Positions 680 to 58,178 of a DNA stretch of 64,000 nucleotides are shown piece by piece. The translations under genes were made by a program, and so were the position numbers. Source of the stretch: Lactobacillales bacterium (lineage in GTDB: Bacteria > Bacillota_I > Bacilli_A > RF39 > UBA660); the NCBI GenBank assembly GCA_015059545.1, contig SVAG01000002.1:109654-173653 (forward strand), given 5' to 3'. Below the pieces are notes generated by a model, which made no database searches, was not told the origin of the DNA, and was given only the letters and a program-made list of their open reading frames with translations. Position 1 is the first letter of the stretch, and every line of letters starts with the position of its first letter.

Positions 680-1690
680 TTATTTATTTAAAGCTTCAAT
701 AAGCTCTGCTTTTTTCATTGTTGAGTAACCTTTAACGTCTTTAGCTTTAGCCATTTCACGAAGTTCTGCAACTGTAAGTTTAGTTAAATCTTTGGCTTCT
801 TCTTTTACTTCTTTTTTAACTTCTTTAACTTCAGTTTTTTCTTCTTTAGCTTCTACTTTTTCTGTCTTTTTTACATCTTTTTTAAATGGTTTATTTGATT
901 TTTCAAATCTTTTTTTATTATCGTCTTTTCTTTTTACTGTTTCTAATGCTTTTTCCATAATATTAGCATCTGCTTTTTTATCTTCATCTTTAACATAGTT
1001 AACGATTTTTCCACCATTTGCTTCTACTATAGCATTAGCCATAACACCTGTAATTAATTTTACAGCACGGATAGCATCGTCATTACCTGGAATTACATAA
1101 TCAACCATATCTGGATCACAGTTTGTATCTACAATACCAAATACTGGAATATTTAATTTTCTAGCTTCTCTTATTGCGATTTCTTCTTTAGAAGGATCTA
1201 CAACAAACATAGCTTCTGGTAATTTGTGCATTTCACGAATACCACATAATACTTTATTTAATTTTTCATATTCTTTTTTAATTCCAATTACTTCTTTTTT
1301 TGGTAATAAATCGAATGTACCATCTTTTTCCATTCTTTCGATTTCTTCTAATCTTTTAACTCTTCTTCTTATTGTTCTGAAATTAGTTAAAGTTCCACCT
1401 AACCATCTTTCAGCTACATAATAAGAATTTGATCTAATAGCTTCTTCAGTAACAGCTTCACTTGCTTGTTTTCTAGTTCCAACAAATAAAACTTTACCTC
1501 CATTAGCTGCAATTTTGTGAAGAGCTGCATAAGCTTCTTCTATTTTTTTAGCTGTTTTTTGTAAGTCGATAATATAAATATCATCTCTTGATGTAAAAAT
1601 ATACTCTTTCATTTTTGGGTTCCATCTTTTAGTTTGGTGACCAAAGTGAACACCTGTTTCTAATAAATAACTCATTGACACTACTGCCAT
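680..1690 (-). CDS. rpsB: 30S ribosomal protein S2 with a ~100-aa K/E-rich C-terminal extension
   Basis: The S2 core is clear ([14 protein letters not shown] ... DTNCDP ...). The protein then runs into a lysine/glutamate-rich tail ending [32 protein letters not shown]. The gene sits upstream of tsf, and a GGAGGA RBS precedes the start. Confidence 0.9.
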
Positions 1691-4170: not shown

Positions 4171-5400
4171 TTAAATTTCCATATCTGCTTTAGCAACTTC
4201 TATAGCTGGACGCACTCCTGCTGTAATTTTATTATTTGCATAACGATTAGCATCTACTGTTGTATTTGCTAATATAATCCATGAACGTTCATATTGTGTT
4301 GATACAGGTGTTTCTAACCAGTAACCATCCGCTCCATTTTCTTCAGTTGAATATTTAGTGTTTTCTAATAAAAATTTACAATTATCAATGCGAGTAGATA
4401 CAGGCCCATTTAAATTTATACTACAAGCTTTTTCTATTTCTTGTGTTGTTAAAAATCTTGCAGCATAACCACTATAATCATATTCAGTCGGTAAATCATA
4501 AATATATGGCCCATACCCAGCTGATGTTCCGTCTACTTCACTTAATATTTGTCTTTTACTATTTTTTAAACTAACATTTTTCCATTGTGCTGTAGTAGGT
4601 AAATTAGTAATTGCTGTTACTGGTCCATTATAATTTTTTCCATTTTCATTATACGCAATTAAATTTGTTGCTAAATTATCAGCAATTCCTTTTGTTGTAT
4701 TATTACTATATACTAATACAGCTGTTAAATTATCTAAATCGGTTACATAATAAAATCTTTCTGTTTGTGAGTCATATTTTTTATCACCATTAACATCACA
4801 ATCAAATGCATCTCCACTTGATAATGATCCTGCTTTTCCTAAATTTCCATAAGTTATATCTGAGTTTAATTCATATCCATCAACTTTACAATACCAATAG
4901 GTATCTTCTTGTTTACATTTTTCTGTATGTAACTCTGTTGCTTTTTTACATTTATAAGTTACTTCTTCAGGTTCTTCTTCGTTTGGTTCCTCTTTTGGTT
5001 CTTCTTTATTTTCATCGTCATTTACTTTTGATCCTACTATTGCTTCTCCATCTTCATATTTTACTTCATATCCATTTATTACTAGTGTTGCTTTTATTAC
5101 TCTTCCTGATGAATCTACTTCAATTGTTCCACTTGTTGGTTTTGTTCCTTTTACATTTACTTTGCTATTAAATGATGTTACTTCTCCTGATTCTATTTTT
5201 TCATATTTACCATTTAATTGTGCCATTGAATTATTATAATCAATTGCTTCAATGTACCCATATGCTGAATCTACTGCAGCACTCTTTCTTGCATCATTTA
5301 TCATATTTAATATAATTGGTGTTGCTATTAGTGCTATTATTGCTAGTATTACTATTACTGCTAATAGTTCAATAAGTGTAAAACCTTTTTTATTCTTCAT
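4171..5400 (-). CDS. Modular type IV pilin-like protein, copy 1: prepilin N-terminal methylation domain plus an acidic linker plus a C-terminal lectin-like (DUF1566-like) head
   Basis: The N-terminus is MKNKKG|FTLIELLAVIVILAIIALIATP, a class III signal peptide with Glu at +5. The first ~118 aa are essentially identical to copies 2 and 3; copy 5 diverges slightly (IEAIEYQN vs IEAIDYNN). An EEPKEEPNEEEPEE linker follows. The C-terminal region carries the motifs ARFLTTQEIEK ... GYWLETPVST ... AGVRPAIEV. Confidence 0.8.
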   Translation of the reverse strand: MKNKKGFTLIELLAVIVILAIIALIATPIILNMINDARKSAAVDSAYGYIEAIDYNNSMAQLNGKYEKIESGEVTSFNSKVNVKGTKPTSGTIEVDSSGRVIKATLVINGYEVKYEDGEAIVGSKVNDDENKEEPKEEPNEEEPEEVTYKCKKATELHTEKCKQEDTYWYCKVDGYELNSDITYGNLGKAGSLSSGDAFDCDVNGDKKYDSQTERFYYVTDLDNLTAVLVYSNNTTKGIADNLATNLIAYNENGKNYNGPVTAITNLPTTAQWKNVSLKNSKRQILSEVDGTSAGYGPYIYDLPTEYDYSGYAARFLTTQEIEKACSINLNGPVSTRIDNCKFLLENTKYSTEENGADGYWLETPVSTQYERSWIILANTTVDANRYANNKITAGVRPAIEVAKADMEI

Positions 5401-9360: not shown

Positions 9361-10380
9361 TTATATTCTTTTTATATATTTTTCTAATACTTTACCTTCT
9401 ATTATTTCTTCTTTATTAAAATTATATTTTTCAATTATATCAAAAGGATTAGAAAAATCATTTTTATTTTTTGAAAGATCATTTATTTGATACATTGCTA
9501 ATTCTTTATCTTGTAAATATATATTATAAAATTCTAAAGCAAGTACCATTCCATATGTATATTCTAATATAGAGTATATTTGATTATATTTTTGTCTAAA
9601 ATCTAAATTTGTAATAATATCTTCTTTTAATAAATTTGATAAATCTTTTATGTTTTCTTCTAAATTATCTAGATATTCATATTTTACATTTTGAAAATCA
9701 ATCTTATTTTCAACTAAATAATCACCAAATACTAATTCTAAAAAATGGGAATATATTTCACATAAATAATTGCGTCTACATTCATTTGAATTATTAAAAT
9801 CATAAATGTGCCCAACTTCATGAATAGAATTAACTGCTGTAAATATAGAACCATAATCTTCTACTAATACATATGGTGTAAAATAATTACCATAAAAAGT
9901 TAGTCCATCATTTACAAAATCATATTCTTTGCTACTTAAATAAATAAATTTATTATTTTTTACACATTTTTTAAATGATTCAAATATTTTTTTATCAAAT
10001 TTATTAAGAAATTCAGCTACTAGTTCCTGGCTTTCTTCAATACTCATTTCTGTTAGACAATACTTAAATTGTTGATTTGGATAATTATTTAATATATATA
10101 TATAATTATCAGTTAATTCGTCATTAAAATCATAATTACTAGTATAAAAATTCTTTTGATTTCTTTCTATTTCTGTATAATCTTTAGAAAAAGTTTTATA
10201 TGAATAATTATCTACATTTAAAATATTATCTAATTGTATGATATTTGCTAATTCATATAGTTTTTCTAAATCGGATATTAATTTATCATACATTGATTTA
10301 GAGTGACATCTTTTCATTCTGCGAACTATATTTAAAATATCACTTCTAACCATTTGTTCTATTAAAATATCTGTTTCCAT
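9361..10380 (-). CDS. Hypothetical protein with an HExxH metallopeptidase-like motif (SIHEVGHIYDF)
   Basis: The ORF encodes 339 aa with no TM segment. Only the HEVGH motif is recognisable. Confidence 0.4.
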   Translation of the reverse strand: METDILIEQMVRSDILNIVRRMKRCHSKSMYDKLISDLEKLYELANIIQLDNILNVDNYSYKTFSKDYTEIERNQKNFYTSNYDFNDELTDNYIYILNNYPNQQFKYCLTEMSIEESQELVAEFLNKFDKKIFESFKKCVKNNKFIYLSSKEYDFVNDGLTFYGNYFTPYVLVEDYGSIFTAVNSIHEVGHIYDFNNSNECRRNYLCEIYSHFLELVFGDYLVENKIDFQNVKYEYLDNLEENIKDLSNLLKEDIITNLDFRQKYNQIYSILEYTYGMVLALEFYNIYLQDKELAMYQINDLSKNKNDFSNPFDIIEKYNFNKEEIIEGKVLEKYIKRI

Positions 10381-10476
10381 AAAACCCCAACCTTTTTAAA
10401 TATTATAAATATATTTTATTAAAAGTCAAGAAGTATAACTGTTAAATAATTACATATTATAATTATAGGTGTTTAT

Positions 10477-10950
10477 ATGAATATAGGTTTATATTTTTTA
10501 ATATTTATTTCTAAAGTTATTGAAAATGGACTTTCTACTTTAAGACTTATTGTAGTGGCTAATGGTAAAAAAATATTAGGTGCTTTTTTACAATTTGTGA
10601 TTTCTTTAGTATGGGTACTTGTTACTGGTATTGTTGTAAATGATTTAATTGAAGATCCATTAAAAGTAATATTTTTTGCATTAGGATCACTAGTTGGTTC
10701 TTATGCTGGAAGTATAATAGAAGAAAAAATAGCACTCGGTGATATATTAATAAATTGTATTACTAATAATATTGAAGTAAATAATTATATTAAATCAATT
10801 GGATATAATACTTCTATTTTAAAAACTGATAATAAAGATATATTATTATTTGTTATTCCAAGAAGAAAGAAAATTGATATTATAAACAATATTAAATTAA
10901 TCGATAAAGATGTATTAATATTCAGTGAAAAAGTTAAGAATTTCTCTTAA
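10477..10950 (+). CDS. Small membrane protein (UPF0316/DUF2179-like architecture)
   Basis: This 157-aa protein is one of the few plus-strand genes. It has three N-terminal hydrophobic helices followed by a soluble C-terminal domain. The family assignment is from memory only. Confidence 0.4.
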   Translation: MNIGLYFLIFISKVIENGLSTLRLIVVANGKKILGAFLQFVISLVWVLVTGIVVNDLIEDPLKVIFFALGSLVGSYAGSIIEEKIALGDILINCITNNIEVNNYIKSIGYNTSILKTDNKDILLFVIPRRKKIDIINNIKLIDKDVLIFSEKVKNFS

Positions 10951-10956
10951 CTTTTT

Positions 10957-11385
10957 TTATAAATATTTTTTTAATTTTTCAATATATTTTTCTTGTATTT
11001 CTACGTATTCTTCTATAATTTTATGTATTTTTTTATCTATATTTTTATTATTTAATATTTTTCTTCCTTCTATTATTCCCATGTTTGTTCCTTGAAGTAA
11101 AAGTTCTGCTATTTTAGAAGTACTTGTATCATTCATTGTTTTCATATTTATTTGTGACCAAGTCATAGCTTTTGTCATAGCACCGGTTTCATGTGGTTTA
11201 GAATCACTATATTCTCCATATATATCATCTATTTTTTTCTTTATTTTTTCATATTGTTGATATTGATCTTCTACTATTCTTTTTAATTCTTTTTCTTCTA
11301 TTTTATCTATGATGTCACGTGTTGCATCCATACCCATACAAGCACCTTTACTTATTTCATCTAATGCATTAATATTTTCTTCCAT
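10957..11385 (-). CDS. Hypothetical protein
   Basis: The ORF encodes 142 aa with ordinary codon usage. A hairpin lies upstream at 11411..11429. Confidence 0.4.
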   Translation of the reverse strand: MEENINALDEISKGACMGMDATRDIIDKIEEKELKRIVEDQYQQYEKIKKKIDDIYGEYSDSKPHETGAMTKAMTWSQINMKTMNDTSTSKIAELLLQGTNMGIIEGRKILNNKNIDKKIHKIIEEYVEIQEKYIEKLKKYL

Positions 11386-11435
11386 ATTCTAGTCCTTTCT
11401 ATTTAACAAAAAGTCTCTTTAAGAGACTTTTTTAC

Positions 11436-11586
11436 TACATCATATCTTCTAGCATATTATCTGTTTTTTTCATTATTTTATCAGTCATTTTTTCCATTTT
11501 CTTCATCATTGGTTTTCTATATTTTTGATATGCTAAAACAGCTCCTGCACCCATTAACATGTATGCTATATCCATCTTTTTCATTT
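11436..11586 (-). CDS. Possible small protein of ~49 aa (MKKMDIAYMLMGAGAVLAYQKYRKPMMKKMEKMTDKIMKKTDNMLEDMM)
   Basis: This is a hand-translated ORF that is absent from the track because it is under 60 aa. It is followed by a hairpin at 11411..11429. It is weakly supported. Confidence 0.25.
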
Positions 11587-11670
11587 AATCACCTTCTTGC
11601 TAAAAAATATGAATAAATGTATGTACACAAACTAATACATACATTATTATTTTATCTAGCTTTTTTTATT

Positions 11671-13878
11671 TTATACATTTTCTTTTAATTTTTCTTTTAA
11701 AGTTGTTTTTCTCGTTTCTTCAGAATTATTTTTTATTCCATATTTAAATGCTTCTGCTTCACCTAATATAATTAATTTTCTTTTAGCTCTAGTGATTCCT
11801 GTATATATTAATTTTTTATATAGCATTCTTTTATAACTGGTACTTACTAATAATACTACTGTATCAAATTCACTTCCTTGTGATTTATGTACACTTATAA
11901 TATATCCATGTTTTATTTTATTAAAATCAGTTGGTAAGAATTTTACTACATTACCATCAAAATCAATATATATTTCATTCTTTTTACTTTTTGAAGTATT
12001 TGCTTCTTTTATATATTTAATTACTCCTATATCTCCATTATAAACATTTTCTTCTGGCATATTAGTAAGTAGTAATATTTTATCGTTTTCTCTAAATATT
12101 ACATCTCCTACTTTTATTTCTCTAGTAAATTCATTCTTAGGATTAAATATATCTTGTAATTCTTTATTTATATTATCTATTCCATTTACTCCTATATACA
12201 TTGGAGCCATTATTTGTACTTTTTTATAATCATATCCTTTTTCTATTAATGTTTTTGATAATTCTTTTATATTTTTTACAATTGATATTCTATTACAATT
12301 TAAAAATGTATAATCATCTTTTGTTGTTAAAAAATCATCACTTAAATTATCGTTTTTAATCTCATCAGCTAGTATTGGTATATATGATTCATTACTTTGT
12401 CTATATAGATAATTTAAATTAATTGTATTTATTATTTCACTTTCTATTAAATCTTTTAATATTTGTCCTATTCCAACACTTGGTAATTGATTATAATCTC
12501 CTACAAGTATTAGTTTAATATTATTTGTAAGTCCTTTAAACAAACTACTTAAAAGACTTATATCTATCATACTTACTTCATCTACAATTATTAAATTACT
12601 TAAATCTTTATTATATTCATTTATAGAAAAAGCATTTGTTTCTTTATTCCATTTTAAAAATCTATGGATTGTTGATGCTTTTAAATTAGTTGATTCACTC
12701 ATTCTTTTACTAGCTCTACCTGTTGGAGCAAGAAGTGCAATTCTTTCTTCTATTTCTTTTTCTTTTAGTTTATTTATTTTTATATATAAATCTACTATTG
12801 CTTTTATAATTGTAGTTTTTCCAGTACCTGGTCCTCCAGTTATAATTGTAATATTATTTATTAAAGATGATTTAATGGCATTTATTTGTTCTTCATTATA
12901 AATGATATTATTATTTTCTTGTAATCTTTCTATTAATTCATCTATATTTTTAATATTGTCTTTTTGTTTAGAATTTAAATAATTAATTTTTTCAACAATT
13001 ATTTTTTCAGAATCATATAATTCTTTTACATAGTATTTATCATCTTCCTCAACTACTTTTCCTTCATATCTAAGTTCATCTATATAATTGATAAAATCAT
13101 TTTCTTCTATATCTAAGTTTAAATATGAAATGACATTCTTTTTTATTTCATCAAAATATAGATAAGTATCTTTATTTTGATAAGATATAGTATTCATAAC
13201 ATAATAAATACATGCTTTTATTCTTTCTATACTTGTTTCATCTGTTAATTTTTTATTTATTTCATCTATTTTTAAAAATGAAATATCTAAATCTGTATCT
13301 AGTATACTATATATATTTTGTTCTATTTTATAAATTGTATTACTTTTAAATTTATTATATATAGCAAGTGCATCTTTTAGACTAAATCCTATTTCTGTTA
13401 AATAAACAATTGTTTTATGACTTTCTTCATATTTATTTAGTGTATCTACTATTACTTTTATTTTCTTTTCAGTTATAGTTGGTACTAAATATAAACAGTT
13501 TTCTTCTTCTAATATTCTATCTAATGTATTATCTCCTAATGTTTCTACTATTTTAGTAGCAAGTTTTTTCCCTATTCCTTTAAATAAATCACTTGATAAA
13601 AATTCTATTATTGAATCTTTATCTTCTGGTTTAATTCTTTCATAATTTTTTACATTATATTGAAAACCATATTTTATATGTTCTACTGCTTCTCCATAAA
13701 AGATATATTTATCATCTTCATTAAGTTCTGCAAATGTTCCTGTAAATGTTATTGTTTTATTTAAATAATCAATTACATCATCATCATTTGTATCTTCTAT
13801 TTTAAATATACCTATTATAAATCCATTATCACCTTTAAATATTGATCTTTTATATATTCCTTTTATATAGTTTTCCAT
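11671..13878 (-). CDS. recD2: ATP-dependent RecD-like DNA helicase (RecD2/YrrC)
   Basis: The 735-aa protein has a Walker A motif (ITGGPGTGKTT) and C-terminal SF1 motifs (SVHKSQGSEFDTVVLL, TGITRAKRKL). Confidence 0.85.
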   Translation of the reverse strand: MENYIKGIYKRSIFKGDNGFIIGIFKIEDTNDDDVIDYLNKTITFTGTFAELNEDDKYIFYGEAVEHIKYGFQYNVKNYERIKPEDKDSIIEFLSSDLFKGIGKKLATKIVETLGDNTLDRILEEENCLYLVPTITEKKIKVIVDTLNKYEESHKTIVYLTEIGFSLKDALAIYNKFKSNTIYKIEQNIYSILDTDLDISFLKIDEINKKLTDETSIERIKACIYYVMNTISYQNKDTYLYFDEIKKNVISYLNLDIEENDFINYIDELRYEGKVVEEDDKYYVKELYDSEKIIVEKINYLNSKQKDNIKNIDELIERLQENNNIIYNEEQINAIKSSLINNITIITGGPGTGKTTIIKAIVDLYIKINKLKEKEIEERIALLAPTGRASKRMSESTNLKASTIHRFLKWNKETNAFSINEYNKDLSNLIIVDEVSMIDISLLSSLFKGLTNNIKLILVGDYNQLPSVGIGQILKDLIESEIINTINLNYLYRQSNESYIPILADEIKNDNLSDDFLTTKDDYTFLNCNRISIVKNIKELSKTLIEKGYDYKKVQIMAPMYIGVNGIDNINKELQDIFNPKNEFTREIKVGDVIFRENDKILLLTNMPEENVYNGDIGVIKYIKEANTSKSKKNEIYIDFDGNVVKFLPTDFNKIKHGYIISVHKSQGSEFDTVVLLVSTSYKRMLYKKLIYTGITRAKRKLIILGEAEAFKYGIKNNSEETRKTTLKEKLKENV

Positions 13879-14702: not shown

Positions 14703-16007
14703 CTATTCTCTTATTAATGATTTTTGTACTTTTATTACTGGACGTATACCTGCATCATGTATATTACCAACATAACGAGCTTGCAAATTACCTCTTTCTG
14801 ATACACGATAAGCTTGTGTGCTATTACCATTAGACTCAGTTGTCATAGTAGATGTCCAATATCCAGCTATTTTTTCAGTTGAAGAAACCTCACCATAAGC
14901 ATAATAATTATAATAATTTCTATCACTTATATTACATCCATAATCGATACAACCATCTGATGTACTATAAGCTGTATAATCATATAACCATGCATATTTA
15001 GATTTAGTTGTAAGACTAGCAACTTTGGTTTTCCATGTTGTATCTGTTCCATTTAATCCATCTAAATAATAATCTGACACTGTTGTTCCAATTTCAGGTG
15101 TATCATAAGTATATGTAAGGTTACTTGCCCATTTTAATGATGTATTTGCTCCTGTTATCTCTGCTACTTCATCTGCTGTTATTAATCTTGCTTTATACCC
15201 TGTATAATCAAAATTATCTATAGTTTCTGATAATGATAATTTTGAATCCCATGATGATGTTTTGTTATTTAAGAAATTTGCAGCATCAGTCATTACACCT
15301 GGTTTATCTGATATGGAATGGCTCCAAGCTAATGTACCTGTTATATTATGATCTAATATCATTAAATAATTTGTTCCATCATCTTTATATGCATACCATT
15401 TCATACATCCTGTTGTTATTTCTGTAGGTGTACCATTACTATTTACATTATTTGCTGCATCTTCACTAGTACATGTTTTTGTTAAATCTGTTGGATCTAA
15501 ATATACTATTTTTAGTAATCCTTTTGTTGTATTTTTATCTGGATCTTCACTTGTTGGGCCAGTTACTACTTCTTCAGGTTGTTGGTTTTCTGGTTGCTCT
15601 TCTTTTTCTTCTTTATTTTCATTGTCAGTTGCTTTTCCTTCTACTGTTGCTTCTCCATCTTCATATTTTACTTCATATCCATTTATTACTAGTGTTGCTT
15701 TTATTACTCTTCCTGATGAATCTACTTCAATTGTTCCACTTGTTGGTTTTGTTCCTTTTACGTTTACTTTGCTATTAAATGATGTTACTTCTCCTGATTC
15801 TATTTTTTTATAATTACCATTTAATTGTGACATTGCGTTATTATAATCTATCGCCTCTATATATCCGTATGCTGAGTCTACTGCTGCTGACTTTCTTGCA
15901 TCATTTATCATATTTAATATGATTGGTGTTGCTATAAGTGCTATTATTGCTAGTATTACTATTACTGCTAATAGTTCTATAAGTGTAAAACCTTTTTTAT
16001 TCTTCAT
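14703..16007 (-). CDS. Modular type IV pilin-like protein, copy 2
   Basis: The N-terminal ~118 aa are the same as copy 1. The C-terminal part has the motifs ARLITADEVAEI ... GYWTSTMTT ... AGIRPVIKV, separated by a T/S/N/Y-rich stretch. Confidence 0.8.
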   Translation of the reverse strand: MKNKKGFTLIELLAVIVILAIIALIATPIILNMINDARKSAAVDSAYGYIEAIDYNNAMSQLNGNYKKIESGEVTSFNSKVNVKGTKPTSGTIEVDSSGRVIKATLVINGYEVKYEDGEATVEGKATDNENKEEKEEQPENQQPEEVVTGPTSEDPDKNTTKGLLKIVYLDPTDLTKTCTSEDAANNVNSNGTPTEITTGCMKWYAYKDDGTNYLMILDHNITGTLAWSHSISDKPGVMTDAANFLNNKTSSWDSKLSLSETIDNFDYTGYKARLITADEVAEITGANTSLKWASNLTYTYDTPEIGTTVSDYYLDGLNGTDTTWKTKVASLTTKSKYAWLYDYTAYSTSDGCIDYGCNISDRNYYNYYAYGEVSSTEKIAGYWTSTMTTESNGNSTQAYRVSERGNLQARYVGNIHDAGIRPVIKVQKSLIRE

Positions 16008-23473: not shown

Positions 23474-23517
23474 ATTACCACCTACTTTAATTTTATCATA
23501 ATATAAATAAAAAGAAA

Positions 23518-23536
23518 ATATCAGAAATTCTGATAT
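23518..23536 (-). terminator. Perfect 8-bp AT-rich hairpin (atatcaga-aat-tctgatat) abutting the alaS-like stop, with a short T-run on the minus strand
   Basis: The inverted repeat is visible in the sequence. It may act as an attenuator between the alaS-like gene and dgt. Confidence 0.3.
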
Positions 23537-25281
23537 TAATCTTCTAATATAGCCTTTATTCTTCTAACACCTGCACTACTTGCTTCTTCTTTTTTGATTT
23601 TGAATGTACCTAACTCATTTGTATTTTTTACATGTGGTCCTCCACATAATTCATGTGATACATCACCGATACTATATACAGTTACAATATCAGGATATTT
23701 TTCTATAAACATACATTCTGCACCTGAAGCAATGGCTTCTTCTTTACTCATTTCTTTTTTAGTTACTTCTAATCCTTCACTAATCCATTTATTTACTAAT
23801 TCTTCAGTTTTTTGTTTTTCTTCATCTGTAAGTTTATGATCACATGAGAAGTCAAATCTTAATCTATCACTTGTTATATTTGATCCTTTTTGATGTACAT
23901 CTTTATTTACTACTACTTTTAATGCTGCATTAAGTAAATGTGTTGCTGTATGATATTTAGTTTCTACTTCACTATTTCCAGATAATCCACCTTTAAATTT
24001 ACCTGCTGAAGCTGTTCTTGATTTTTCTTGATGTTCCTTAAATTTATTATTAAATCCTTCTTCGTCTACTTTTAAATTTCTTTCACTAGCAAGTTCTATT
24101 GTAAGTTCTATAGGGAATCCATAAGTATCGAATAATCTGAATGCTGAAGTTCCATCTATATCTTCATTATTTCTAACTACTTTTTCAAATTCTCTTAATC
24201 CTTTTTCAAGTGTTCTATTGAATTTGATTTTTTCATTATTAAGTACTTCTAATACTACTTGTTCATTATCTACTAATTCTTTATAGTATTTATTATATTT
24301 ATTTAATATTAATTTAGATATTTGTTGTTCAAAATCACTATTAACATCAATATTTAACTTTTTAGCATGTCTTATTGCACGTCTTAGTAATCTTCTTAAA
24401 ATATATCCTTGATCTGTATTAGATGGTTTTATTCCTGCTGGATCTGCTGAAATAAATACAGCTGTTCTTAAATGGTCAGCAATTATTCTCATGCTAGTTT
24501 CATTACCTTCGTATGGTAAGTTAGATATTTTTTCTATTAATTCAATTACATCTTTCCATACGCTTGATAGGTAATTATCATTTACACCTTCTAATATTGC
24601 AGTTGTTCTTTCAACACCCATTCCTGTATCAACATTTTTCTTAGGAAGTTCTGTTACATTTCCTTCACTATCTTTATAGTATTGCATGAAAACATTATTC
24701 CAAATTTCTACCCATCTTTCATCTTCTGGATCAAATGTTGATGGAATTTCATCATCACTTCTAAAATAGAATATTTCTGTATCTGGTCCACATGGTCCAG
24801 TTTCTCCTGCAATCCAGAAATTATCTTCTACAGTTCTAGCTATTCTTTTCTCTTTAATTCCTAAACTTAACCATTTATCATGACTTTCTTGATCAAATGG
24901 AATTAAATCATTTCCTGCAAATACTGTTACAGCTAATTTTTCTACAGGAATATTTAAATGTTTTGTTAAAAATTCAAAACTCCATTCAATACTTTCATTC
25001 TTAAAATAATCTCCTAAACTCCAATTACCTAACATTTCAAAAAATGTATGATGTGTTGTATCTCCAATAGCATCTAAGTCATTTGTTCTTATACATTTTT
25101 GATAATCACATAGTCTTGTTCCATATGGATGAGTTTCTCCCATTAAATATGGAATAAGTGGCTGCATACCTGCAGTATTAAATAAAACTGATGGATCATT
25201 TTCTGGTACTACAGGTGATGATGGTATTTGTTTATGTCCTTTTTCTATAAAGAAATTTATATATAAGTCTTTTAAATTCAT
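23536..25281 (-). CDS. alaS: Alanyl-tRNA synthetase homolog, short form (catalytic, tRNA-recognition and editing core; no C-Ala domain)
   Basis: The N-terminus is MNLKDLYINFFIEKGHKQIPSSPVVPENDPSVLFNTAGMQP. The protein has HHTFFEMLGNWSLGDYFK, then the editing motifs HTATHLL (HxxxH) and ELCGGPH (CxxxH). It stops ~10 aa later at 581 aa. Confidence 0.75.
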   Translation of the reverse strand: MNLKDLYINFFIEKGHKQIPSSPVVPENDPSVLFNTAGMQPLIPYLMGETHPYGTRLCDYQKCIRTNDLDAIGDTTHHTFFEMLGNWSLGDYFKNESIEWSFEFLTKHLNIPVEKLAVTVFAGNDLIPFDQESHDKWLSLGIKEKRIARTVEDNFWIAGETGPCGPDTEIFYFRSDDEIPSTFDPEDERWVEIWNNVFMQYYKDSEGNVTELPKKNVDTGMGVERTTAILEGVNDNYLSSVWKDVIELIEKISNLPYEGNETSMRIIADHLRTAVFISADPAGIKPSNTDQGYILRRLLRRAIRHAKKLNIDVNSDFEQQISKLILNKYNKYYKELVDNEQVVLEVLNNEKIKFNRTLEKGLREFEKVVRNNEDIDGTSAFRLFDTYGFPIELTIELASERNLKVDEEGFNNKFKEHQEKSRTASAGKFKGGLSGNSEVETKYHTATHLLNAALKVVVNKDVHQKGSNITSDRLRFDFSCDHKLTDEEKQKTEELVNKWISEGLEVTKKEMSKEEAIASGAECMFIEKYPDIVTVYSIGDVSHELCGGPHVKNTNELGTFKIKKEEASSAGVRRIKAILED

Positions 25282-25282
25282 T

Positions 25283-25927
25283 TTACTTCTCTCCTTCTAT
25301 GATGTTTGTTATTTCATCTACTACTTCTTCTAATGTCATATTAGTAGTATCTATATATATTTGATTTTCTGTTTTTGTTAATGCTCCAAATTCTTTATGC
25401 ATATCATTATAATCTCTTGCTTCCATACTTTTATATACTTCTTCATATGGAACTTCTATATTTAGCTCTTTATTTTGTCTAAATCTTCTATTAGCCCTTT
25501 CTTCTAATGTTGCATCTAAATATATTTTAATTTCTGCATTAGGAAATACTACTGTTGTTGTATCTCTTCCTTCTAATATTACATCTTTTCCTACTGACAT
25601 TTTTCTTTGTAATTCTACTAAATTTTTTCTTACATCTACTATATTTGATATAAATGAAGCTCTATTAGATACTTCATTTGTTCTAATATCTAATGTTACT
25701 TCTTGTCCATCTAAAAACACTTTTTTATCTTCTGTTATTTCAATATCTAAGTTTTTAGATAGTTCTATTAAATCTTCTTCTTTTTCTACATTGTTTCTAA
25801 TAGCTTTTAAAGCTAAACATCTATATGTAGCTCCAGTATCTACTTTCGTAAACCCTAATTTTTCTCCTATTATATTTGTTACTGTACTTTTTCCACTTCC
25901 TGCTGGACCATCGATTGCTACTACCAT
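25283..25927 (-). CDS. cmk: Cytidylate kinase
   Basis: The N-terminus is MVVAIDGPAGSGKSTVTNIIGEKLGF, followed by DTGATYR. Confidence 0.85.
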   Translation of the reverse strand: MVVAIDGPAGSGKSTVTNIIGEKLGFTKVDTGATYRCLALKAIRNNVEKEEDLIELSKNLDIEITEDKKVFLDGQEVTLDIRTNEVSNRASFISNIVDVRKNLVELQRKMSVGKDVILEGRDTTTVVFPNAEIKIYLDATLEERANRRFRQNKELNIEVPYEEVYKSMEARDYNDMHKEFGALTKTENQIYIDTTNMTLEEVVDEITNIIEGEK

Positions 25928-26439
25928 TTTATCACCTCTATTATATTTTTTACTTTTTGTTCTAACTCTTCTATAGAACTTTTATTTTCTATTTTAAAAT
26001 CATATATATTATAATTATCTAATGCTGTTTCTGTTATATGATTTTTTTCCATATTATTTAAACTATTTTCTCTACCAATAATATTTATAACTGATACATT
26101 TTCATATTTTTCTTTTATACAATTAATTTCTTCTATAAATCTTGCATCACTTACTATTATAACATCAAAATAATTTTTGTACACTTCTATATCTTGTAAT
26201 AATCTATTTATTAAAAATTTATTATCTATTTTTTTTACATAATCGCCTATTTCTTGCAAAAATGTTCTAGGTTTAGTATTTTCATTTCCATCCCATTTTA
26301 ATATATTTTTAGCATATTCTTTTAAATGTGATGCATATGAAATAGTTATTGTTTTTTTATCTTTTAAATTATTTTCTATTATACTAGCTACTCTATTTTT
26401 TCCACTTTCTGCTTTTCCACTTAATATTATTATTTTCAT
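25921..26439 (-). CDS. P-loop protein of the phage-type dNMP kinase-like family
   Basis: The N-terminus MKIIILSGKAESGKN resembles T4 Dnk (MKLIFLSGVKRSGKD). I moved the start to ATG (complement of 26437-26439), which has a GGAGGAA RBS; the track start (TTG) lies inside that RBS. The ORF overlaps cmk by 7 nt. Confidence 0.5.
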   Translation of the reverse strand: MKIIILSGKAESGKNRVASIIENNLKDKKTITISYASHLKEYAKNILKWDGNENTKPRTFLQEIGDYVKKIDNKFLINRLLQDIEVYKNYFDVIIVSDARFIEEINCIKEKYENVSVINIIGRENSLNNMEKNHITETALDNYNIYDFKIENKSSIEELEQKVKNIIEVIKW

Positions 26440-26455
26440 AAATTCCTCCAACAAA

Positions 26456-26640
26456 AGAAAAAACCACTAGCATTTTCTAGGAACGAAAAGCCGTGGTACC
26501 ATCCTAATTTATTCTTAATTAATATAACGGTTAGACCGGTAGTTATTACTACACTAAAAGATAGCTTTCACTAATTATTTTTGTTAGTTTACACCGACCA
26601 CTAACTCTCTTTAAAAAATATATTAGTTACTTATTCTTTA
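26456..26640 (-). promoter_or_regulatory. Putative T-box riboswitch leader
   Basis: The minus-strand RNA contains AAAUUAGGAUGGUACCACGG, matching the T-box consensus AAUUAGGGUGGUACCGCGG. It also has an upstream AGAGAG and an AGUGAAAGCUA stem-I-like element. An ACCAC...CUAG-loop-CUAG-UGGU hairpin plus U-run ends 10 nt before the RBS of the dNMP-kinase-like gene. The region is GC-richer than its surroundings. Confidence 0.55.
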
Positions 26641-26648
26641 TCATTGTT

Positions 26649-27815
26649 TTATCTATCATAATTTAAAATATCATATTTTTCATCAAAGAATAATATTAAT
26701 GCTTTACATGCCGCAATTACAGGTGTTGCGATTACCATTCCAAGTATTCCAAAGAAATGTCCAAATACTAATAATCCTATCATTACTGTAACTGGATGTA
26801 ATTTAGCTGATTTACTCATTATTAATGGTTGTATTAAATTTCCTTCTAAAAGTTGAATTACTACAATACATACTAATACTATAATTCCTGTAGTTGTTGA
26901 TTGTGAGAATGCTACTATAACTGCTGGTGCTCCACCTATATATGGTCCTGCATAAGGAATTATATTTGTAAGTCCACAGAATAATCCAAATAGTAATGGA
27001 GCTTGAAGTCCTGCTATTGCAAAACATATTGAGCTAACTACAAATACTAATGAACAATCTGCAAGTGCTCCATTTATAAATCTTCTAAATGCTGTATTTA
27101 TTTCATTAAATATATCTCTAGTACTACTTTGTAATTTTTTAGGGAATAAAGTTATAACAGAATCTGATACATTATTAAAATTAATAAGTAAGAAGAATCC
27201 AATTATTAATCCAACTAATAAATTACCTATACCTGAGAATAATGATTTTACAAAATTAATAGTTAATTCTGGTAATGATGATGTTAAATTTGTACCTATA
27301 CTTTCTATGTTTTCAAATAATTTCAATTTAAATTCATCAACATCTAAATTATCAATATTTTTTAAATTATTAAGTACTCCATCTAACCATGATTTTATAT
27401 TATCAAATACATTTGGCATTATTTTTACAAAATCATTTATTTGATCTCCCAATAATGGTATTAAAGAACCTAGAATTATACTAATTATTCCTATAAAAAT
27501 TACATATGTTATAGCTGTACCTAATGTTCTTCTAACACCTTTTCTTTGTAACATTGATACAAATGGATCAAATAACCAAGCTACAAAGAAACCAATAAAT
27601 AATGGTGAAATAATTTTTAAAATTGTTAATACATTTTGTTTTACGTGTAACTCTTTTAAAATTATAATAGATATATAAGCACCTACTATAAATAATAAAA
27701 CTGTGAATATTTTTAAAATTGTTTTTGATAATGAAACAACTTCATTAATACCTCTTACATCAAGTTCTGCTTTTTTCTTTTTATTCTCTTTTTTAAATAA
27801 CATACATATCACCAC
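26649..27815 (-). CDS. AI-2E family transporter (UPF0118/PerM-like permease)
   Basis: The 388-aa protein has multiple TM helices and the architecture and motifs of the YueF/YtvI type. Confidence 0.65.
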   Translation of the reverse strand: MVICMLFKKENKKKKAELDVRGINEVVSLSKTILKIFTVLLFIVGAYISIIILKELHVKQNVLTILKIISPLFIGFFVAWLFDPFVSMLQRKGVRRTLGTAITYVIFIGIISIILGSLIPLLGDQINDFVKIMPNVFDNIKSWLDGVLNNLKNIDNLDVDEFKLKLFENIESIGTNLTSSLPELTINFVKSLFSGIGNLLVGLIIGFFLLINFNNVSDSVITLFPKKLQSSTRDIFNEINTAFRRFINGALADCSLVFVVSSICFAIAGLQAPLLFGLFCGLTNIIPYAGPYIGGAPAVIVAFSQSTTTGIIVLVCIVVIQLLEGNLIQPLIMSKSAKLHPVTVMIGLLVFGHFFGILGMVIATPVIAACKALILFFDEKYDILNYDR

Positions 27816-37817: not shown

Positions 37818-39518
37818 TTATATTTGATATGGATTATCCCAAGTACCTGTTCCTCCTGTAACAGCAATATCTTTTTTTACTAAAATAACTGGTCGTATAG
37901 CATATTCCATAGAAACTGAATTATTTTTAGCATTTCCTAAACTATTAATATACCATGCACTATTAAAATATGAATACTTATTTAAAGTCCAATACATTTC
38001 ATTTGTATCAATAGTTGAACTTTGAGCCGCTAAAATTTCACCTACTTTTATTAAACCAACTTTAGCTTTTGTTCCATTAGTATTTGAAGATAATATATCA
38101 TTATATTTAAATGGTAAAGTTACTGCATCACCTTGATACCATGTTGTTTCTACTATATCTTCTGATCCTACTAATCCTAATATTGATATTGCACTTGTAC
38201 TATCTGTTTCACTATTTAATTTTAATCCTATTCCTGATATTGTCGTAAATGTATTATCTTCTCCATATATTGTTTTTCCTATATATCCATCATATATTAA
38301 TTTTACTCCATTATTATCTTCGCTTACTACTCTATATGTTTTACCTTTTAAATTCACATATTCACCACTTGTAGCTATACTATTTAATGTTCCTGTTATA
38401 TCTTTTGTCTTATTTTCTTTTAATACATAATAATCAGTTGAATCACCTTTTTCTCCTGAAGTAATCACCGAGTTTTCTTTTACATTAATAATAGGTCTTA
38501 TACCATATGTTGTAGAAGTATAAACCATTTCACTTTTTGTAGAAGATATATACCATGCATATGTACTATTAGCTGGTGTCATTGTCCATATTGCTTCTCC
38601 ATTATTTAAATATGTTGATGAATTATCAGACAATAAATATTCATCATTTGATAATATTCCAATATAGGCTTCTACCTCTTTACCTGATGTACATGTTTGT
38701 CTTGCTGTTGTTGAATTTAAACTATTCATAGTAGCATCACTACAAAAATATTTACCATTACTGATTATTTCTTTTGTATCATTTAAATTTGCATAAAAAT
38801 AGTCATTTAACCAATCATGAATATAACCTTCATCACTAATATACTCTTTTCCTGTTCCTGATCCAAATGGAATAGATGTTACAGATTTATCAGTTATTAA
38901 TCTTACTGTTCCATCTTCATTTATTCCCATTATTCTCCACATAAATCCGTTATACCATATATAATTATTTGTTGATGTTCCTTTTATATAACATCCTCCC
39001 ATATATTTATATGTTGATTTATCTGTTGAATCTGCGTCTATTTTACATTTTCCATCTTCTGTATATACTAATGTTTTTGCTTTATCTGAAATTGTAGTTT
39101 CTTTAACAACTATCTCTTCATTTTGTTTTTTTCCACATTTATCACTATCAGTTGCTTTGGCTTTTTCATTTTGATATACAATATTAAAACCATCTATACA
39201 TAAGTCTGCTTCTATTACTCTTCCTGATGCATCAACTTCTATGGTTCCACTTGTTGGTTTTGTTCCTTTTACTTTTACATCATTGTTTATTGTTATTACA
39301 TCTCCTGAAGCTATTTTGTTATATTTATTATTTAATTGTGCTATTGAATTATTATAATCTATTGCTTCTATATATCCGTATGCTGAATCTACTGCAGCTG
39401 ATTTTCTCGCATCATTTATCATATTTAATATAATTGGTGTTGCTATTAGTGCTATTATTGCTAATATTACTATTACTGCTAATAGTTCTATAAGTGTAAA
39501 TCCTTTTTTATTCTTCAT
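37818..39518 (-). CDS. Modular type IV pilin-like protein, copy 3 (largest, 566 aa)
   Basis: It shares the first ~60 aa exactly with copies 1 and 2, and ~95% of the first ~105 aa. It has a Cys-containing middle region and two lectin-like modules in tandem. Module one is GILSNDEYLL ... AIWTMTPANST ... YGIRPIINVKEN. Module two is GLIKVGEILAAQ ... EMYWTLNKYSYF ... AIRPVILVKK. Confidence 0.8.
   Translation of the reverse strand: MKNKKGFTLIELLAVIVILAIIALIATPIILNMINDARKSAAVDSAYGYIEAIDYNNSIAQLNNKYNKIASGDVITINNDVKVKGTKPTSGTIEVDASGRVIEADLCIDGFNIVYQNEKAKATDSDKCGKKQNEEIVVKETTISDKAKTLVYTEDGKCKIDADSTDKSTYKYMGGCYIKGTSTNNYIWYNGFMWRIMGINEDGTVRLITDKSVTSIPFGSGTGKEYISDEGYIHDWLNDYFYANLNDTKEIISNGKYFCSDATMNSLNSTTARQTCTSGKEVEAYIGILSNDEYLLSDNSSTYLNNGEAIWTMTPANSTYAWYISSTKSEMVYTSTTYGIRPIINVKENSVITSGEKGDSTDYYVLKENKTKDITGTLNSIATSGEYVNLKGKTYRVVSEDNNGVKLIYDGYIGKTIYGEDNTFTTISGIGLKLNSETDSTSAISILGLVGSEDIVETTWYQGDAVTLPFKYNDILSSNTNGTKAKVGLIKVGEILAAQSSTIDTNEMYWTLNKYSYFNSAWYINSLGNAKNNSVSMEYAIRPVILVKKDIAVTGGTGTWDNPYQI
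39230..39518 (-). repeat. Conserved pilin 5' coding module, repeat copy C (within gene 3)
   Basis: The coding stretch for MKNKKGFTL ... VKGTKPTSGTIEVD is highly similar at the DNA level. The upstream region differs from the other copies. Confidence 0.6.
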
Positions 39519-58167: not shown

Positions 58168-58178
58168 GAGATTACCTC

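What the first reader, a model, noticed from the sequence alone, without database searches (positions are those of the whole stretch)
23536..25281. AlaRS homolog of only 581 aa that ends right after the editing-domain CxxxH motif
The catalytic and tRNA-recognition regions are clearly AlaRS (SVLFNTAGMQP, HHTFFEMLGNWSLGDYFK, RRLLRRAIRHA, DTYGFPIELT). The editing motifs HTATHLL and ELCGGPH are present. The region between the tRNA-recognition domain and HxxxH is only ~25 aa (GGLSGNSEVETKY), and the protein stops ~10 aa after CGGPH. Canonical bacterial AlaRS is ~870 aa, with a beta-barrel editing subdomain and a C-Ala domain. A perfect hairpin abuts the stop. Either this is a naturally minimal AlaRS (missing the C-Ala oligomerisation/tRNA-binding domain), or it is a paralog.
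Basis: partly seen in the sequence, partly recalled or inferred. Interest (0 to 1): 0.6.

Follow-up and report, generated by a model that had tools for sequence, protein, structure and literature searches.

The report
Short alanyl-tRNA synthetase, known family
This gene encodes a naturally short alanyl-tRNA synthetase that keeps the charging and proofreading parts but lacks two domains of the textbook enzyme; the type is already catalogued and widespread in uncultured microbes, though nobody seems to have tested it in the laboratory.

Summary
The 581-aa ORF at 23536..25281 (-) is real and is an AlaRS. One detail of the finding is wrong: the protein ends 31 residues after the His of CGGPH, at the normal end of the editing core, not about 10.

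It has two modules. Residues 1-428 are the aminoacylation and tRNA-recognition domain. Residues 438-581 are an AlaX-S-like zinc editing core. A 9-residue Gly-rich linker joins them. The beta-barrel subdomain and C-Ala are absent.

It is not a truncation:
- Hundreds of relatives are 570-650 aa long.
- dN/dS is about 0.14 in both modules.
- No barrel or C-Ala remnant lies in any frame of the window.

It matches NCBIfam NF002436 (PRK01584, "alanine--tRNA ligase", equivalog) end to end. It also has the "small-AlaRS" architecture described in a 2023 preprint.

New context found here:
- An Ala-specific (GCU) T-box leader heads the operon DNMK-like–cmk–alaS.
- In 87%-identical relatives the short gene is followed, after one HD gene, by the gene run that follows canonical alaS in Paenibacillus (IreB–RuvX–DUF1292–YceG–U32).

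So it is most likely the housekeeping AlaRS, not a degraded paralog. A second alaS elsewhere in the genome could not be excluded.

Verdict: already known family, biochemically uncharacterised, modest interest.

The parts
23536..25281 (-). alaS, short form, 581 aa plus TAA stop
   Evidence: ORF. NCBIfam NF002436 matched end to end (positions 5-594 of 595), 780 bits against a cut-off of 529. Pfam tRNA-synt_2c and tRNA_SAD. The exact protein is in NCBI as 'alanine--tRNA ligase [Lactobacillales bacterium]'.
23998..25281 (-). Aminoacylation domain, residues 1-428: class II catalytic core plus helical tRNA-recognition (ATL) domain
   Evidence: phmmer hits AlaRS catalytic fragments in the PDB (E 2.5e-95). 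The AF2 model scores TMt 0.78-0.85 against 9jdn, 3hxu and 1riq. Residues R65, D218, G220, G222, E224, R225 and N288 are invariant in the family. D385 of DTYGFP is present.
23971..23997 (-). Gly-rich linker, residues 429-437 (FKGGLSGNS of the KFKGGL motif)
   Evidence: Residues 427-433 are the only segment of the AF2 model with pLDDT below 50. The KFKGGL-type motif is conserved across short forms from bacteria and archaea. It replaces the ~110-residue beta-barrel subdomain of canonical enzymes.
23539..23970 (-). Editing core, residues 438-581, AlaX-S-like, with zinc ligands H444, H448, C546, H550
   Evidence: A profile built from the editing cores of 41 canonical AlaRS hits it at E 1.5e-52, covering positions 7-143 of 146. 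Foldseek: AlaX-S 1v7o/1wnu TMt 0.87-0.89, rmsd 1.9 A over 151 columns; AlaX-M only TMt 0.51-0.53. H444, H448, Q464, C546, H550 and R574 are invariant.
23506..23544 (-). Intrinsic terminator ending the operon: 9-bp stem 23517-23537, 3-nt loop, U-run
   Evidence: Sequence. RNAfold gives -11.9 kcal/mol for the folded 55-nt stretch that contains it. The consensus scan missed it because the stem has fewer than 3 G-C pairs.
25283..25927 (-). cmk (cytidylate kinase), ending 1 nt before the alaS ATG
   Evidence: Pfam Cytidylate_kin, E 4.4e-67. Coordinates.
25921..26439 (-). DNMK-like P-loop kinase, first gene of the operon. The likely start is the ATG at 26439, behind a GGAGG; the ORF listing begins at the TTG at 26454.
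   Evidence: Pfam DNMK and P-mevalo_kinase. Sequence. The same gene precedes short alaS in L081-83 and L001.
26453..26653 (-). T-box leader with Ala specifier GCU, including the terminator/antiterminator region (hairpin 26464-26498, U-run 26453-26463)
   Evidence: Rfam RF00230, 101.2 bits against a gathering score of 93, E 3.7e-21, model positions 1-219. The 3' side of the specifier loop reads GAA-A-GCU-A. The T-box sequence is AGGAUGGUACCACG. The same element with GCU is present in the 87% relative L081 (81.3 bits, E 8.7e-18).

Best explanation
This is a working housekeeping alanyl-tRNA synthetase of the naturally short type (NCBIfam NF002436/PRK01584, the 'small-AlaRS' of Alvarez-Carreno et al.).

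Shown here:
- Residues 1-428 are a complete class II AlaRS aminoacylation plus tRNA-recognition domain.
- Residues 438-581 are a complete zinc-dependent editing core of the AlaX-S type.
- A 9-residue Gly-rich linker joins them, in place of the beta-barrel subdomain. C-Ala is absent.
- The gene is the last of a three-gene operon (DNMK-like, cmk, alaS). The operon lies behind a T-box riboswitch whose specifier is the alanine codon GCU, and it ends in an intrinsic terminator.

Inferred:
- The enzyme activates alanine and charges tRNA-Ala through acceptor-stem contacts only. The residues that read G3:U70 (N288, D385) are present.
- It gets no help from elbow binding by C-Ala and is probably a monomer.
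- Ser-tRNA-Ala is hydrolysed by the tethered editing core, which probably rebinds released product, as a fused AlaX would.
- Because barrel-less AlaX-S does not clear Gly-tRNA-Ala, glycine errors may be left to another factor such as DTD.
- Transcription reads through the leader when uncharged tRNA-Ala accumulates.
- The gene was probably acquired horizontally and replaced the canonical alaS near its ancestral locus.
For: Family and architecture:
- NF002436 matched end to end above its cut-off. Pfam shows no DHHA1, and tRNA-synt_2c stops at profile position 440 of 552.
- AF2 with a 30-sequence alignment gives pLDDT 90.9.
- Foldseek matches the N-terminal part to AlaRS catalytic fragments. The C-terminal part matches whole AlaX-S (TMt up to 0.89) but only half of AlaX-M.

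Not an artefact:
- More than 100 clusters at 84-100% identity are all 580-582 aa.
- Dozens of 50%-identity clusters are 560-650 aa with the same spacing.
- 58 of the 74 GTDB loci reconstructed from the scan are short forms, from many phyla.
- dN/dS against the 87% relative is 0.14 in both modules.

Functional residues are invariant across the family.

Link to tRNA-Ala: a T-box with GCU specifier is present here and in L081.

Locus:
- L081-83 read AI-2E, T-box, DNMK, short alaS, HD, IreB, RuvX, DUF1292, YceG, OMT, an unassigned ORF, U32, U32.
- In Paenibacillus the canonical alaS is followed by IreB, RuvX, DUF1292, YceG, U32, U32.

Foreign origin:
- The aminoacylation domain is 54% identical to a Pacearchaeota short form but 44% to Paenibacillus.
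- The editing cores of short forms split from canonical ones in 97 of 100 bootstraps.

Literature:
- The small-AlaRS architecture is described in 10.1101/2023.05.29.542759.
- AlaX-S substrate range is given in PMC11260482.
- A mini-AlaRS lacking C-Ala charges tRNA and microhelix efficiently, and C-Ala is the main tRNA-binding module in E. coli (PMC10036535).
Against: - Only 64 kb of the genome could be searched, so a second canonical alaS, a free-standing C-Ala or an AlaX elsewhere is not excluded.
- There are no tRNA genes in the window, so the G3:U70 status and elbow of this organism's tRNA-Ala are unknown.
- No enzyme of this family has been assayed, as far as the searchable literature shows.
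- The T-box is absent from relatives at 70-78% identity, so this regulation is recent and not a family trait.
- In Bacillus, second-copy synthetases (thrZ, tyrZ) are also T-box regulated (my own knowledge). A T-box therefore does not prove sole-copy status.
- In the window itself the IreB-RuvX block is not downstream.
- The monomer state, acceptor-stem-only binding and Ser-only editing are inferences from homologues.
Confidence: 0.8

Rival explanations
1. Accessory paralog. The genome also carries a canonical ~870-aa alaS elsewhere, and this short copy is a second, conditionally induced AlaRS, for example switched on by the T-box during alanine starvation or stress.
For: - The whole genome was not available.
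- T-box-controlled second synthetase copies exist in Bacilli (thrZ, tyrZ; my own knowledge).
- The gene is of foreign phylogenetic type.
- Long-form Lachnospiraceae and Butyrivibrio AlaRS nest inside the short-form clade in the aminoacylation-domain tree, which hints at complex histories of duplication or transfer.
Against: - In close relatives the short gene is followed, after one HD gene, by the gene run that follows canonical alaS in Paenibacillus, and no canonical copy lies beside it.
- NCBI curates the family as an equivalog of alanine--tRNA ligase.
- Short forms are the form found in very small CPR genomes, including a 0.6-Mb complete genome (L060).
- Purifying selection is strong and equal in both modules.
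- There is no second alaS, AlaX or C-Ala in 64 kb.
Confidence: 0.12
2. Split system. The short enzyme works together with a separately encoded partner supplied in trans: a free C-Ala/DHHA1-like tRNA-elbow binder, or an AlaX-M/L that handles Gly-tRNA-Ala. This does not exclude the best explanation.
For: - Domains of AlaRS occur in all combinations in nature: barrel without C-Ala (P0161), and C-Ala without barrel (P0167, P0206, P0246, P0229).
- AlaX-L carries an editing domain plus C-Ala, and AlaX-S cannot clear Gly-tRNA-Ala (PMC11260482).
- Nanoarchaeum AlaRS is naturally split (PMC10036535).
Against: - Profiles for barrel, C-Ala and editing core found nothing else in six frames of the window; all E values were above 0.3.
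- No such gene appears in the conserved neighbourhood of relatives.
- Mini-AlaRS and N-terminal AlaRS fragments charge tRNA or minihelices without C-Ala.
Confidence: 0.1
3. Truncated gene, pseudogene or assembly artefact. A canonical alaS lost its 3' half through a frameshift, a premature stop or a misassembly.
For: Only the length (581 aa against about 870) suggests this.
Against: - Two separate regions are missing, the internal barrel and the C-terminal C-Ala, which one truncation cannot produce.
- The same length occurs on hundreds of independent contigs.
- The ORF ends at the natural end of the editing core and runs into a terminator.
- The next gene starts 62 nt downstream.
- No C-Ala-like coding remnant exists in any frame.
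- dN/dS is 0.14.
- TGA is a genuine stop and is not recoded.
Confidence: 0.01

Closest known systems
NCBIfam NF002436 (PRK01584) 'alanine--tRNA ligase', the ~595-aa short bacterial/archaeal AlaRS; equals the 'small-AlaRS' subgroup of Alvarez-Carreno et al. 2023 (bioRxiv 10.1101/2023.05.29.542759)
   Same: The architecture is identical: catalytic domain, tRNA-recognition (ATL) domain and editing core, with no cradle-loop barrel and no C-Ala. The profile matches end to end above its cut-off. The linker motif and spacing are the same.
   Different: Nothing differs in the protein. The preprint reports the type in CPR bacteria, Thermoplasmatota, DPANN and Asgard archaea. Here it is in a cell-walled, low-GC Bacillota gut lineage, behind an Ala T-box, and in close relatives upstream of the gene run that follows canonical alaS in Paenibacillus. 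Those points are not in that paper.
Canonical bacterial AlaRS (TIGR00344; E. coli, Aquifex, Paenibacillus L070)
   Same: The aminoacylation domain is 39-45% identical and has the same fold. The zinc editing core has the same HxxxH/CxxxH motifs and the GVRRI Arg. The TIGR00344 score is above its cut-off, but in two separate stretches.
   Different: It lacks the ~110-residue beta-barrel subdomain between the tRNA-recognition domain and HxxxH. It also lacks the ~180-residue C-Ala/DHHA1 domain, which binds the tRNA elbow and mediates oligomerisation.
AlaX-S (type I AlaX, Pyrococcus horikoshii PH0574; PDB 1v4p, 1v7o, 1wnu)
   Same: Residues ~435-581 superpose on the entire AlaX-S chain (TMt 0.84-0.89, rmsd 1.9-2.8 A). 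They have the same zinc motifs, no barrel, and the same start about 8 residues before HxxxH.
   Different: AlaX-S is a free-standing trans-editing protein. Here the module is fused to the synthetase. By sequence it is closer to AlaRS editing cores (E 1.5e-52) than to AlaX-S (E 5e-7).
Tupanvirus mini-AlaRS (PMC10036535) and C. elegans mitochondrial AlaRS (PMC8887476)
   Same: They are natural AlaRS without a functional C-Ala. They show that charging through acceptor-stem contacts alone can work.
   Different: The viral enzyme also lacks the editing domain and the conserved N/D recognition residues. The nematode enzyme keeps the barrel and a residual C-Ala. The present protein keeps editing and N288/D385.
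Ala-specific T-box leaders of Firmicute alaS genes (Rfam RF00230)
   Same: A full-length match above the gathering score, with a GCU specifier, the conserved T-box sequence, and a terminator/antiterminator.
   Different: It controls a three-gene operon, DNMK-like–cmk–alaS, rather than alaS alone. It is absent in relatives at 70-78% identity.

Membership tests
Alanyl-tRNA synthetase, class II aminoacylation domain | Sequence and fold of the AlaRS catalytic core plus helical tRNA-recognition domain | tested here: met
   Pfam PF01411, E 3e-139. PDB phmmer, E 2.5e-95. AF2/Foldseek TMt 0.78-0.85 against AlaRS fragments.
Alanyl-tRNA synthetase, class II aminoacylation domain | Active-site and G3:U70-recognition residues. 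By my recollection these are the E. coli equivalents R69, D235, N303 and D400. | tested here: met
   R65, D218, G220, G222, E224, R225 and N288 are invariant in the family alignment. D385 of DTYGFP is present in this protein, although it is variable in the family.
Alanyl-tRNA synthetase, class II aminoacylation domain | Alanine activation and tRNA-Ala charging activity | not testable with these tools
   This needs purified enzyme or genetic complementation.
NCBIfam NF002436 / PRK01584 (short alanine--tRNA ligase) | Full-length match above the curated cut-off | tested here: met
   780 bits against a cut-off of 529; residues 2-581 on profile positions 5-594 of 595.
small-AlaRS (Alvarez-Carreno et al. 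2023) | Catalytic, ATL and editing domains present | tested here: met
small-AlaRS (Alvarez-Carreno et al. 2023) | Cradle-loop (beta) barrel absent | tested here: met
   DTYGFP to HxxxH is 59 residues against 153-197. The barrel profile finds nothing in the window. AlaX-M is matched over only half its length.
small-AlaRS (Alvarez-Carreno et al. 2023) | C-Ala absent | tested here: met
   No DHHA1. The tail after Cys546 is 34-35 residues against 188-298. The C-Ala profile finds nothing in six frames.
Canonical AlaRS (TIGR00344 architecture) | Four-part prototype including the barrel subdomain and C-Ala | tested here: not met
   The score passes (596.5 against 457), but only as two stretches. The barrel and C-Ala are missing.
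AlaX-S trans-editing protein | Barrel-less editing core with HxxxH and CxxxH zinc motifs | tested here: met
   H444, H448, C546 and H550. TMt 0.84-0.89 against 1v4p, 1v7o and 1wnu.
AlaX-S trans-editing protein | Free-standing protein of about 150 aa | tested here: not met
   Here the module is the C-terminal part of a 581-aa synthetase.
Viral mini-AlaRS (Tupanvirus) | Aminoacylation domain only, with no editing domain | tested here: not met
   The editing core is present and conserved.
T-box riboswitch (RF00230), Ala class | Covariance-model match above the gathering score, with Stem I, the T-box sequence and a terminator | tested here: met
   101.2 bits against 93, full model. Terminator helix plus U-run.
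T-box riboswitch (RF00230), Ala class | Specifier codon for alanine at the canonical position, followed by a purine | tested here: met
   The 3' side of the specifier loop reads GAA-A-GCU-A in the window and in L081. The reading rests on the CM alignment and was not tested by binding.
T-box riboswitch (RF00230), Ala class | tRNA-Ala-dependent antitermination | not testable with these tools
   This needs in vitro transcription with tRNA-Ala.

The most novel reading that the evidence does not exclude
A horizontally spreading two-module AlaRS (aminoacylation domain plus AlaX-S-like core) displaced the canonical four-domain enzyme near its own chromosomal locus in a cell-walled Bacillota lineage and came under the resident Ala T-box. 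It serves as the only AlaRS. It works as a monomer that binds only the acceptor stem and edits Ser-tRNA-Ala but not Gly-tRNA-Ala. If so, the barrel and C-Ala, long described as universally conserved, would be dispensable in ordinary bacteria, not only in CPR/DPANN symbionts, viruses and organelles.
Probability: 0.35. Interest if true: 0.5.

Novelty: already known. Interest (0 to 1): 0.28.

Why it matters
[quoted passage not shown] A viral enzyme lacking C-Ala was considered noteworthy in 2023.

The short cellular form seen here is abundant. It falls into dozens of 50%-identity clusters, spread across CPR bacteria, DPANN archaea, spirochaete-labelled MAGs and gut Bacillota. Yet it appears to be untested at the bench.

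It is a natural experiment on three questions:
- how much of AlaRS is needed for G3:U70-dependent charging;
- whether cis-editing needs C-Ala to hand the tRNA over;
- whether the barrel subdomain is what allows Gly-tRNA-Ala clearance.

For annotation nothing changes. The gene is already correctly named alanine--tRNA ligase.

Tried and rejected
- Single-sequence AlphaFold gave an unusable model (pLDDT 38.7). It was replaced by the run with alignment A1.
- I first took the missing 'GGKH' in the motif-2 loop (QKCIRT-NDLD) for a hallmark of the short family. The alignment shows canonical Paenibacillus and Dehalococcoidia lack it too, so I dropped the idea.
- The listing of cluster members returned no organism names for ten representatives.
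- The profile search returned only one unnamed 586-aa gut clade.
- The Treponema-type query returned only uncultured Treponema names. My recollection that cultured spirochaetes (Borrelia burgdorferi, 594 aa; Treponema pallidum) carry this short form as their single AlaRS therefore stays unverified. A literature search with 'Borrelia' found nothing relevant.
- A T-box was sought near short alaS in L001-L003 and in L070/L065, and none was found.
- There are no tRNA genes in the window, so tRNA-Ala could not be inspected.
- Recoding of TGA was considered because no long ORF ends in TGA. It was rejected: there are no in-frame TGA codons inside the real genes, and two genes end in TGA.
- The IreB/RuvX block was looked for among small ORFs of the window and was not found.
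Full report
**1. The observation**

The window carries a 581-codon ATG-to-TAA ORF at 23536..25281 on the minus strand.
- QKCIRT 61-66
- HHTFFEMLGN 77-86
- DTGMG 218-222
- PSN 286-288
- RRLLRR 296-301
- DTYGFP 385-390
- HTATH 444-448
- CGGPH 546-550

Pfam finds tRNA-synt_2c on residues 3-431, but only over profile positions 2-440 of 552. It also finds tRNA_SAD on 533-575 and no DHHA1.

One statement is wrong. The protein does not stop about 10 residues after CGGPH. It continues for 31 residues past His550 (…NTNELGTFKIKKEEASSAGVRRIKAILED). That is the ordinary end of the editing core:
- every short-form relative has a 34-44-residue tail after the Cys;
- the tRNA_SAD profile is matched to position 43 of 44;
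- free-standing AlaX-S ends at the same place in the structural superposition.

The hairpin is real. It has a 9-bp perfect stem (23517-23537) and a 3-nt loop, it overlaps the last two bases of the stop codon, and UUUUCUUUUU follows it. The next gene is an HD/HD_assoc dGTPase-like protein that starts 62 nt downstream. The genome is about 24% G+C, with almost all genes on the minus strand. It uses the standard code: TGA is a rare but genuine stop.

**2. Anatomy**

AlphaFold2 on the single sequence failed (pLDDT 38.7). With a 30-sequence alignment of diverse short forms (A1) it gave a confident model (pLDDT 90.9, pTM 0.70). The only disordered segment is 427-433.

Foldseek against the PDB splits the model into two modules:
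- Residues 1 to about 428 superpose on AlaRS catalytic fragments (9jdn TMt 0.85, E. coli 3hxu 0.80, Aquifex 1riq 0.78).
- The C-terminal roughly 150 residues superpose on the whole of Pyrococcus AlaX-S (1v7o/1wnu, TMt 0.87-0.89, rmsd 1.9 A over 151 columns).
- The C-terminal module covers only about half of AlaX-M (2e1b, 9iuw; TMt 0.51-0.53). AlaX-M corresponds to the whole AlaRS editing domain, whereas AlaX-S is only a fragment of it.

Sequence says the same. phmmer hits AlaRS fragments at E 2.5e-95 over residues 4-423, and AlaX-S at 5e-7 over 439-566. A profile I built from the editing cores of 41 canonical AlaRS matches residues about 442-578 at E 1.5e-52.

So the protein has three parts:
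- an aminoacylation plus tRNA-recognition domain (1-428);
- a 9-residue Gly-rich linker (FKGGLSGNS);
- a barrel-less zinc editing core (438-581).

Compared with canonical forms, two separate pieces are missing:
- about 110 residues between the tRNA-recognition domain and HxxxH (DTYGFP to HxxxH is 59 residues here against 153-197);
- about 180 residues of C-Ala.

**3. Not a truncation or artefact**

- The exact protein is on 12 contigs and is in NCBI as 'alanine--tRNA ligase [Lactobacillales bacterium]'.
- More than 100 clusters at 84-100% identity are all 580-582 aa.
- Among the best 150 representatives at the 50%-identity level, lengths are bimodal. Short forms of 560-650 aa have the same spacing, against canonical forms of 850-930 aa.
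- Nei-Gojobori dN/dS against an 87%-identical relative is 0.14 in the aminoacylation module and 0.14 in the linker plus editing module (dS is partly saturated, so the values are rough).
- Profiles for the barrel, C-Ala and editing core, run against all six frames of the window, find only this ORF's editing core. Everything else has E above 0.3.
- tblastn of the protein against the window finds no paralog.

**4. It is a known family**

NCBIfam NF002436 (PRK01584, 'alanine--tRNA ligase', equivalog, 595 positions) matches residues 2-581 end to end at 780 bits, against a cut-off of 529.

The architecture was described in a 2023 preprint as 'small-AlaRS': catalytic, ATL and editing domains, with no cradle-loop barrel and no C-Ala. 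It was reported from CPR bacteria, Thermoplasmatota, DPANN and Asgard archaea, with archaeal copies attributed to transfer from bacteria (10.1101/2023.05.29.542759). That is the only paper in the library that uses the term. I found no biochemical study of such an enzyme.

My scan of one genome per GTDB species found short forms in these groups:
- Patescibacteria, including a complete 0.6-Mb 'Kazan' genome;
- Micrarchaeia, Woesearchaeota and Pacearchaeota;
- many gut or environmental MAGs labelled Bacilli, Clostridia, Treponema, Sphaerochaetaceae, Lentisphaeria, Kiritimatiellales, Chloroflexota and others. MAG labels are not always reliable.

A Treponema-type query returned only 594-608-aa forms named alanine--tRNA ligase. 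From memory, and unverified here, cultured spirochaetes such as Borrelia burgdorferi have a 594-aa AlaRS as their only one.

**5. Housekeeping enzyme or paralog?**

Two new pieces of context bear on this.

(a) T-box. Rfam finds a complete T-box leader at 26476-26653 (-), 101.2 bits against a gathering score of 93.
- In the covariance-model alignment the 3' side of the specifier loop reads GAA-A-GCU-A. The specifier is therefore the alanine codon GCU, followed by the usual purine.
- The T-box sequence AGGAUGGUACCACG and a terminator hairpin plus U-run follow.
- The leader heads three tightly packed genes: a DNMK-like kinase (likely start ATG 26439, behind GGAGG), cmk, and alaS. The first two overlap by 7 nt. 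cmk ends 1 nt before the alaS ATG. The only terminator is the one after alaS.
- The same leader with GCU, and with a partly different Stem I sequence, is present in the 87% relative L081 (81.3 bits, E 8.7e-18).
- It is absent near alaS in relatives at 70-78% identity.

(b) Synteny.
- In L081-L083 the order is AI-2E transporter, T-box, DNMK, short alaS, HD, IreB, RuvX, DUF1292, YceG, O-methyltransferase, an unassigned ORF, U32, U32.
- In Paenibacillus (L070) the canonical alaS (tRNA-synt_2c 1-550 of 552, tRNA_SAD, DHHA1) is followed by IreB, RuvX, DUF1292, YceG, U32, U32.
- From memory, this matches the B. subtilis yrrI-alaS-yrzL-yrrK-yrzB-yrrL… region.
- The short gene therefore lies just upstream of the gene run that follows canonical alaS in Bacilli, separated from it by one HD gene.
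- In the window itself that downstream block has been rearranged to HD, murC, rnhC, cvpA, trx, rsmE.
- The AI-2E–DNMK–alaS–HD core is also kept in L001.

Together with the purifying selection and the conserved residues, this makes a degraded or idle paralog unlikely. It does not prove that no second alaS exists elsewhere. The tools give only 64 kb of this genome.

**6. Origin**

Identity of this aminoacylation domain to others:
- 77% to L001;
- 54% to a Pacearchaeota short form;
- at most 45% to canonical forms;
- 44% to Paenibacillus.

In a neighbour-joining tree of the aminoacylation domain, all short forms cluster apart from 12 canonical sequences. Three long Lachnospiraceae/Butyrivibrio sequences (barrel and C-Ala present) nest inside the short clade. 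In the editing-core tree, short and canonical forms separate in 97 of 100 bootstraps.

The linker motif HQExSR…KFKGGL…SE…K(Y/L)HTATH is shared by short forms from bacteria and archaea.

The simplest reading is one short-form lineage that spreads horizontally and, in this Bacillota clade, replaced the resident gene near its locus. This is an inference from a crude tree.

All four domain combinations exist among the representatives:
- barrel present, C-Ala absent (P0161, 692 aa);
- barrel absent, DHHA1 present (P0167, P0206, P0229, P0246, 773-814 aa).

So domain loss and gain in AlaRS are more common than usually stated.

**7. How it most likely works**

Shown:
- The class II active-site residues and motif 3 (R65, D218, G220, G222, E224, R225) are invariant.
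- The Asn of PSN (N288) is invariant. D385 of DTYGFP is present in this protein, although variable in the family.
- Also invariant are the four zinc ligands, Q464, and the Arg of GVRRI (R574). As I recall from Beebe et al. 2008, that Arg corresponds to E. coli R693, needed for G3:U70 recognition by the editing domain.

Inferred:
- The enzyme charges tRNA-Ala using acceptor-stem contacts alone. N-terminal AlaRS fragments and the Tupanvirus mini-AlaRS do this. In E. coli, by contrast, C-Ala is the main tRNA-binding module (PMC10036535).
- It is probably monomeric, because C-Ala carries the oligomerisation function.
- Proofreading is done by the tethered AlaX-S-like core, probably on released and rebound product.
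- P. horikoshii AlaX-S clears Ser-tRNA-Ala but not Gly-tRNA-Ala, which AlaX-M handles (PMC11260482). A testable prediction follows: this enzyme edits serine but not glycine errors.
- Expression rises when uncharged tRNA-Ala binds the leader.

**8. Verdict**

The 'naturally minimal AlaRS' reading is supported.

The object is an already curated and already described kind, correctly annotated in public databases. The added value here is the Ala T-box operon, the synteny with the canonical Bacilli alaS neighbourhood, and the breadth of the family. Interest is modest, and the main open point is experimental.

Noticed in passing
window 26453-26653 (-): A complete T-box leader with Ala specifier GCU heads an unusual operon: a DNMK-like kinase, cmk and alaS. 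Two nucleotide-kinase genes are thereby placed under tRNA-Ala control. The leader is present in 87% relatives and absent in 70-78% relatives.
   Followed up: yes
L062, L063, L065 (Lachnospiraceae, Butyrivibrio sp. NC2007), match 10001-12088: These full-length AlaRS (871-883 aa, barrel and C-Ala present) have aminoacylation domains that nest inside the short-form clade. Their editing cores group with canonical forms. They may be domain chimeras or second copies; the NJ tree is crude.
   Followed up: partly
proteins P0122, P0124, P0179 (representatives): These short-type AlaRS have a whole unrelated enzyme domain inserted: Ham1/ITPase at 379-552, histidine phosphatase at 221-384, and an alpha/beta-hydrolase at about 416-580. 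They could be real insertions or gene-calling or assembly chimeras.
   Followed up: no
proteins P0161; P0167, P0206, P0229, P0246: Intermediate AlaRS architectures exist. One has the barrel but no C-Ala (692 aa). Four have no barrel but carry DHHA1/C-Ala (773-814 aa).
   Followed up: partly
window 680-1690 (-): Ribosomal protein S2 is 336 aa, with a C-terminal extension that ends in a Rho_N/HeH (SAP-like) domain at residues 301-336.
   Followed up: no
window 4171-5400, 14703-16007, 37818-39518 (all -): Three large proteins (409, 434 and 566 aa) begin with a prepilin N-terminal methylation motif and otherwise have little or no Pfam match. A similar small pilin-like gene sits after alaS in L001.
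   Followed up: no
window 58798-58863 (-): An L21 leader (RF00559) lies upstream of the three small ORFs at 57880-58783 (probably the rplU–ysxB–rpmA operon; these ORFs were not scanned), consistent with a Bacillota origin.
   Followed up: no
L001 11802-15383: In the 78% relative, a block of mobile- or phage-like genes (pilin-like, tail-collar domain, YhcG nuclease, Bro-N, KilA-N) is inserted between short alaS and the HD gene.
   Followed up: no
window, whole: None of 30 ORFs longer than 300 codons ends in TGA (23 end in TAA, 7 in TAG). Only two shorter genes appear to use TGA as a stop. There are no tRNA genes in 64 kb.
   Followed up: partly
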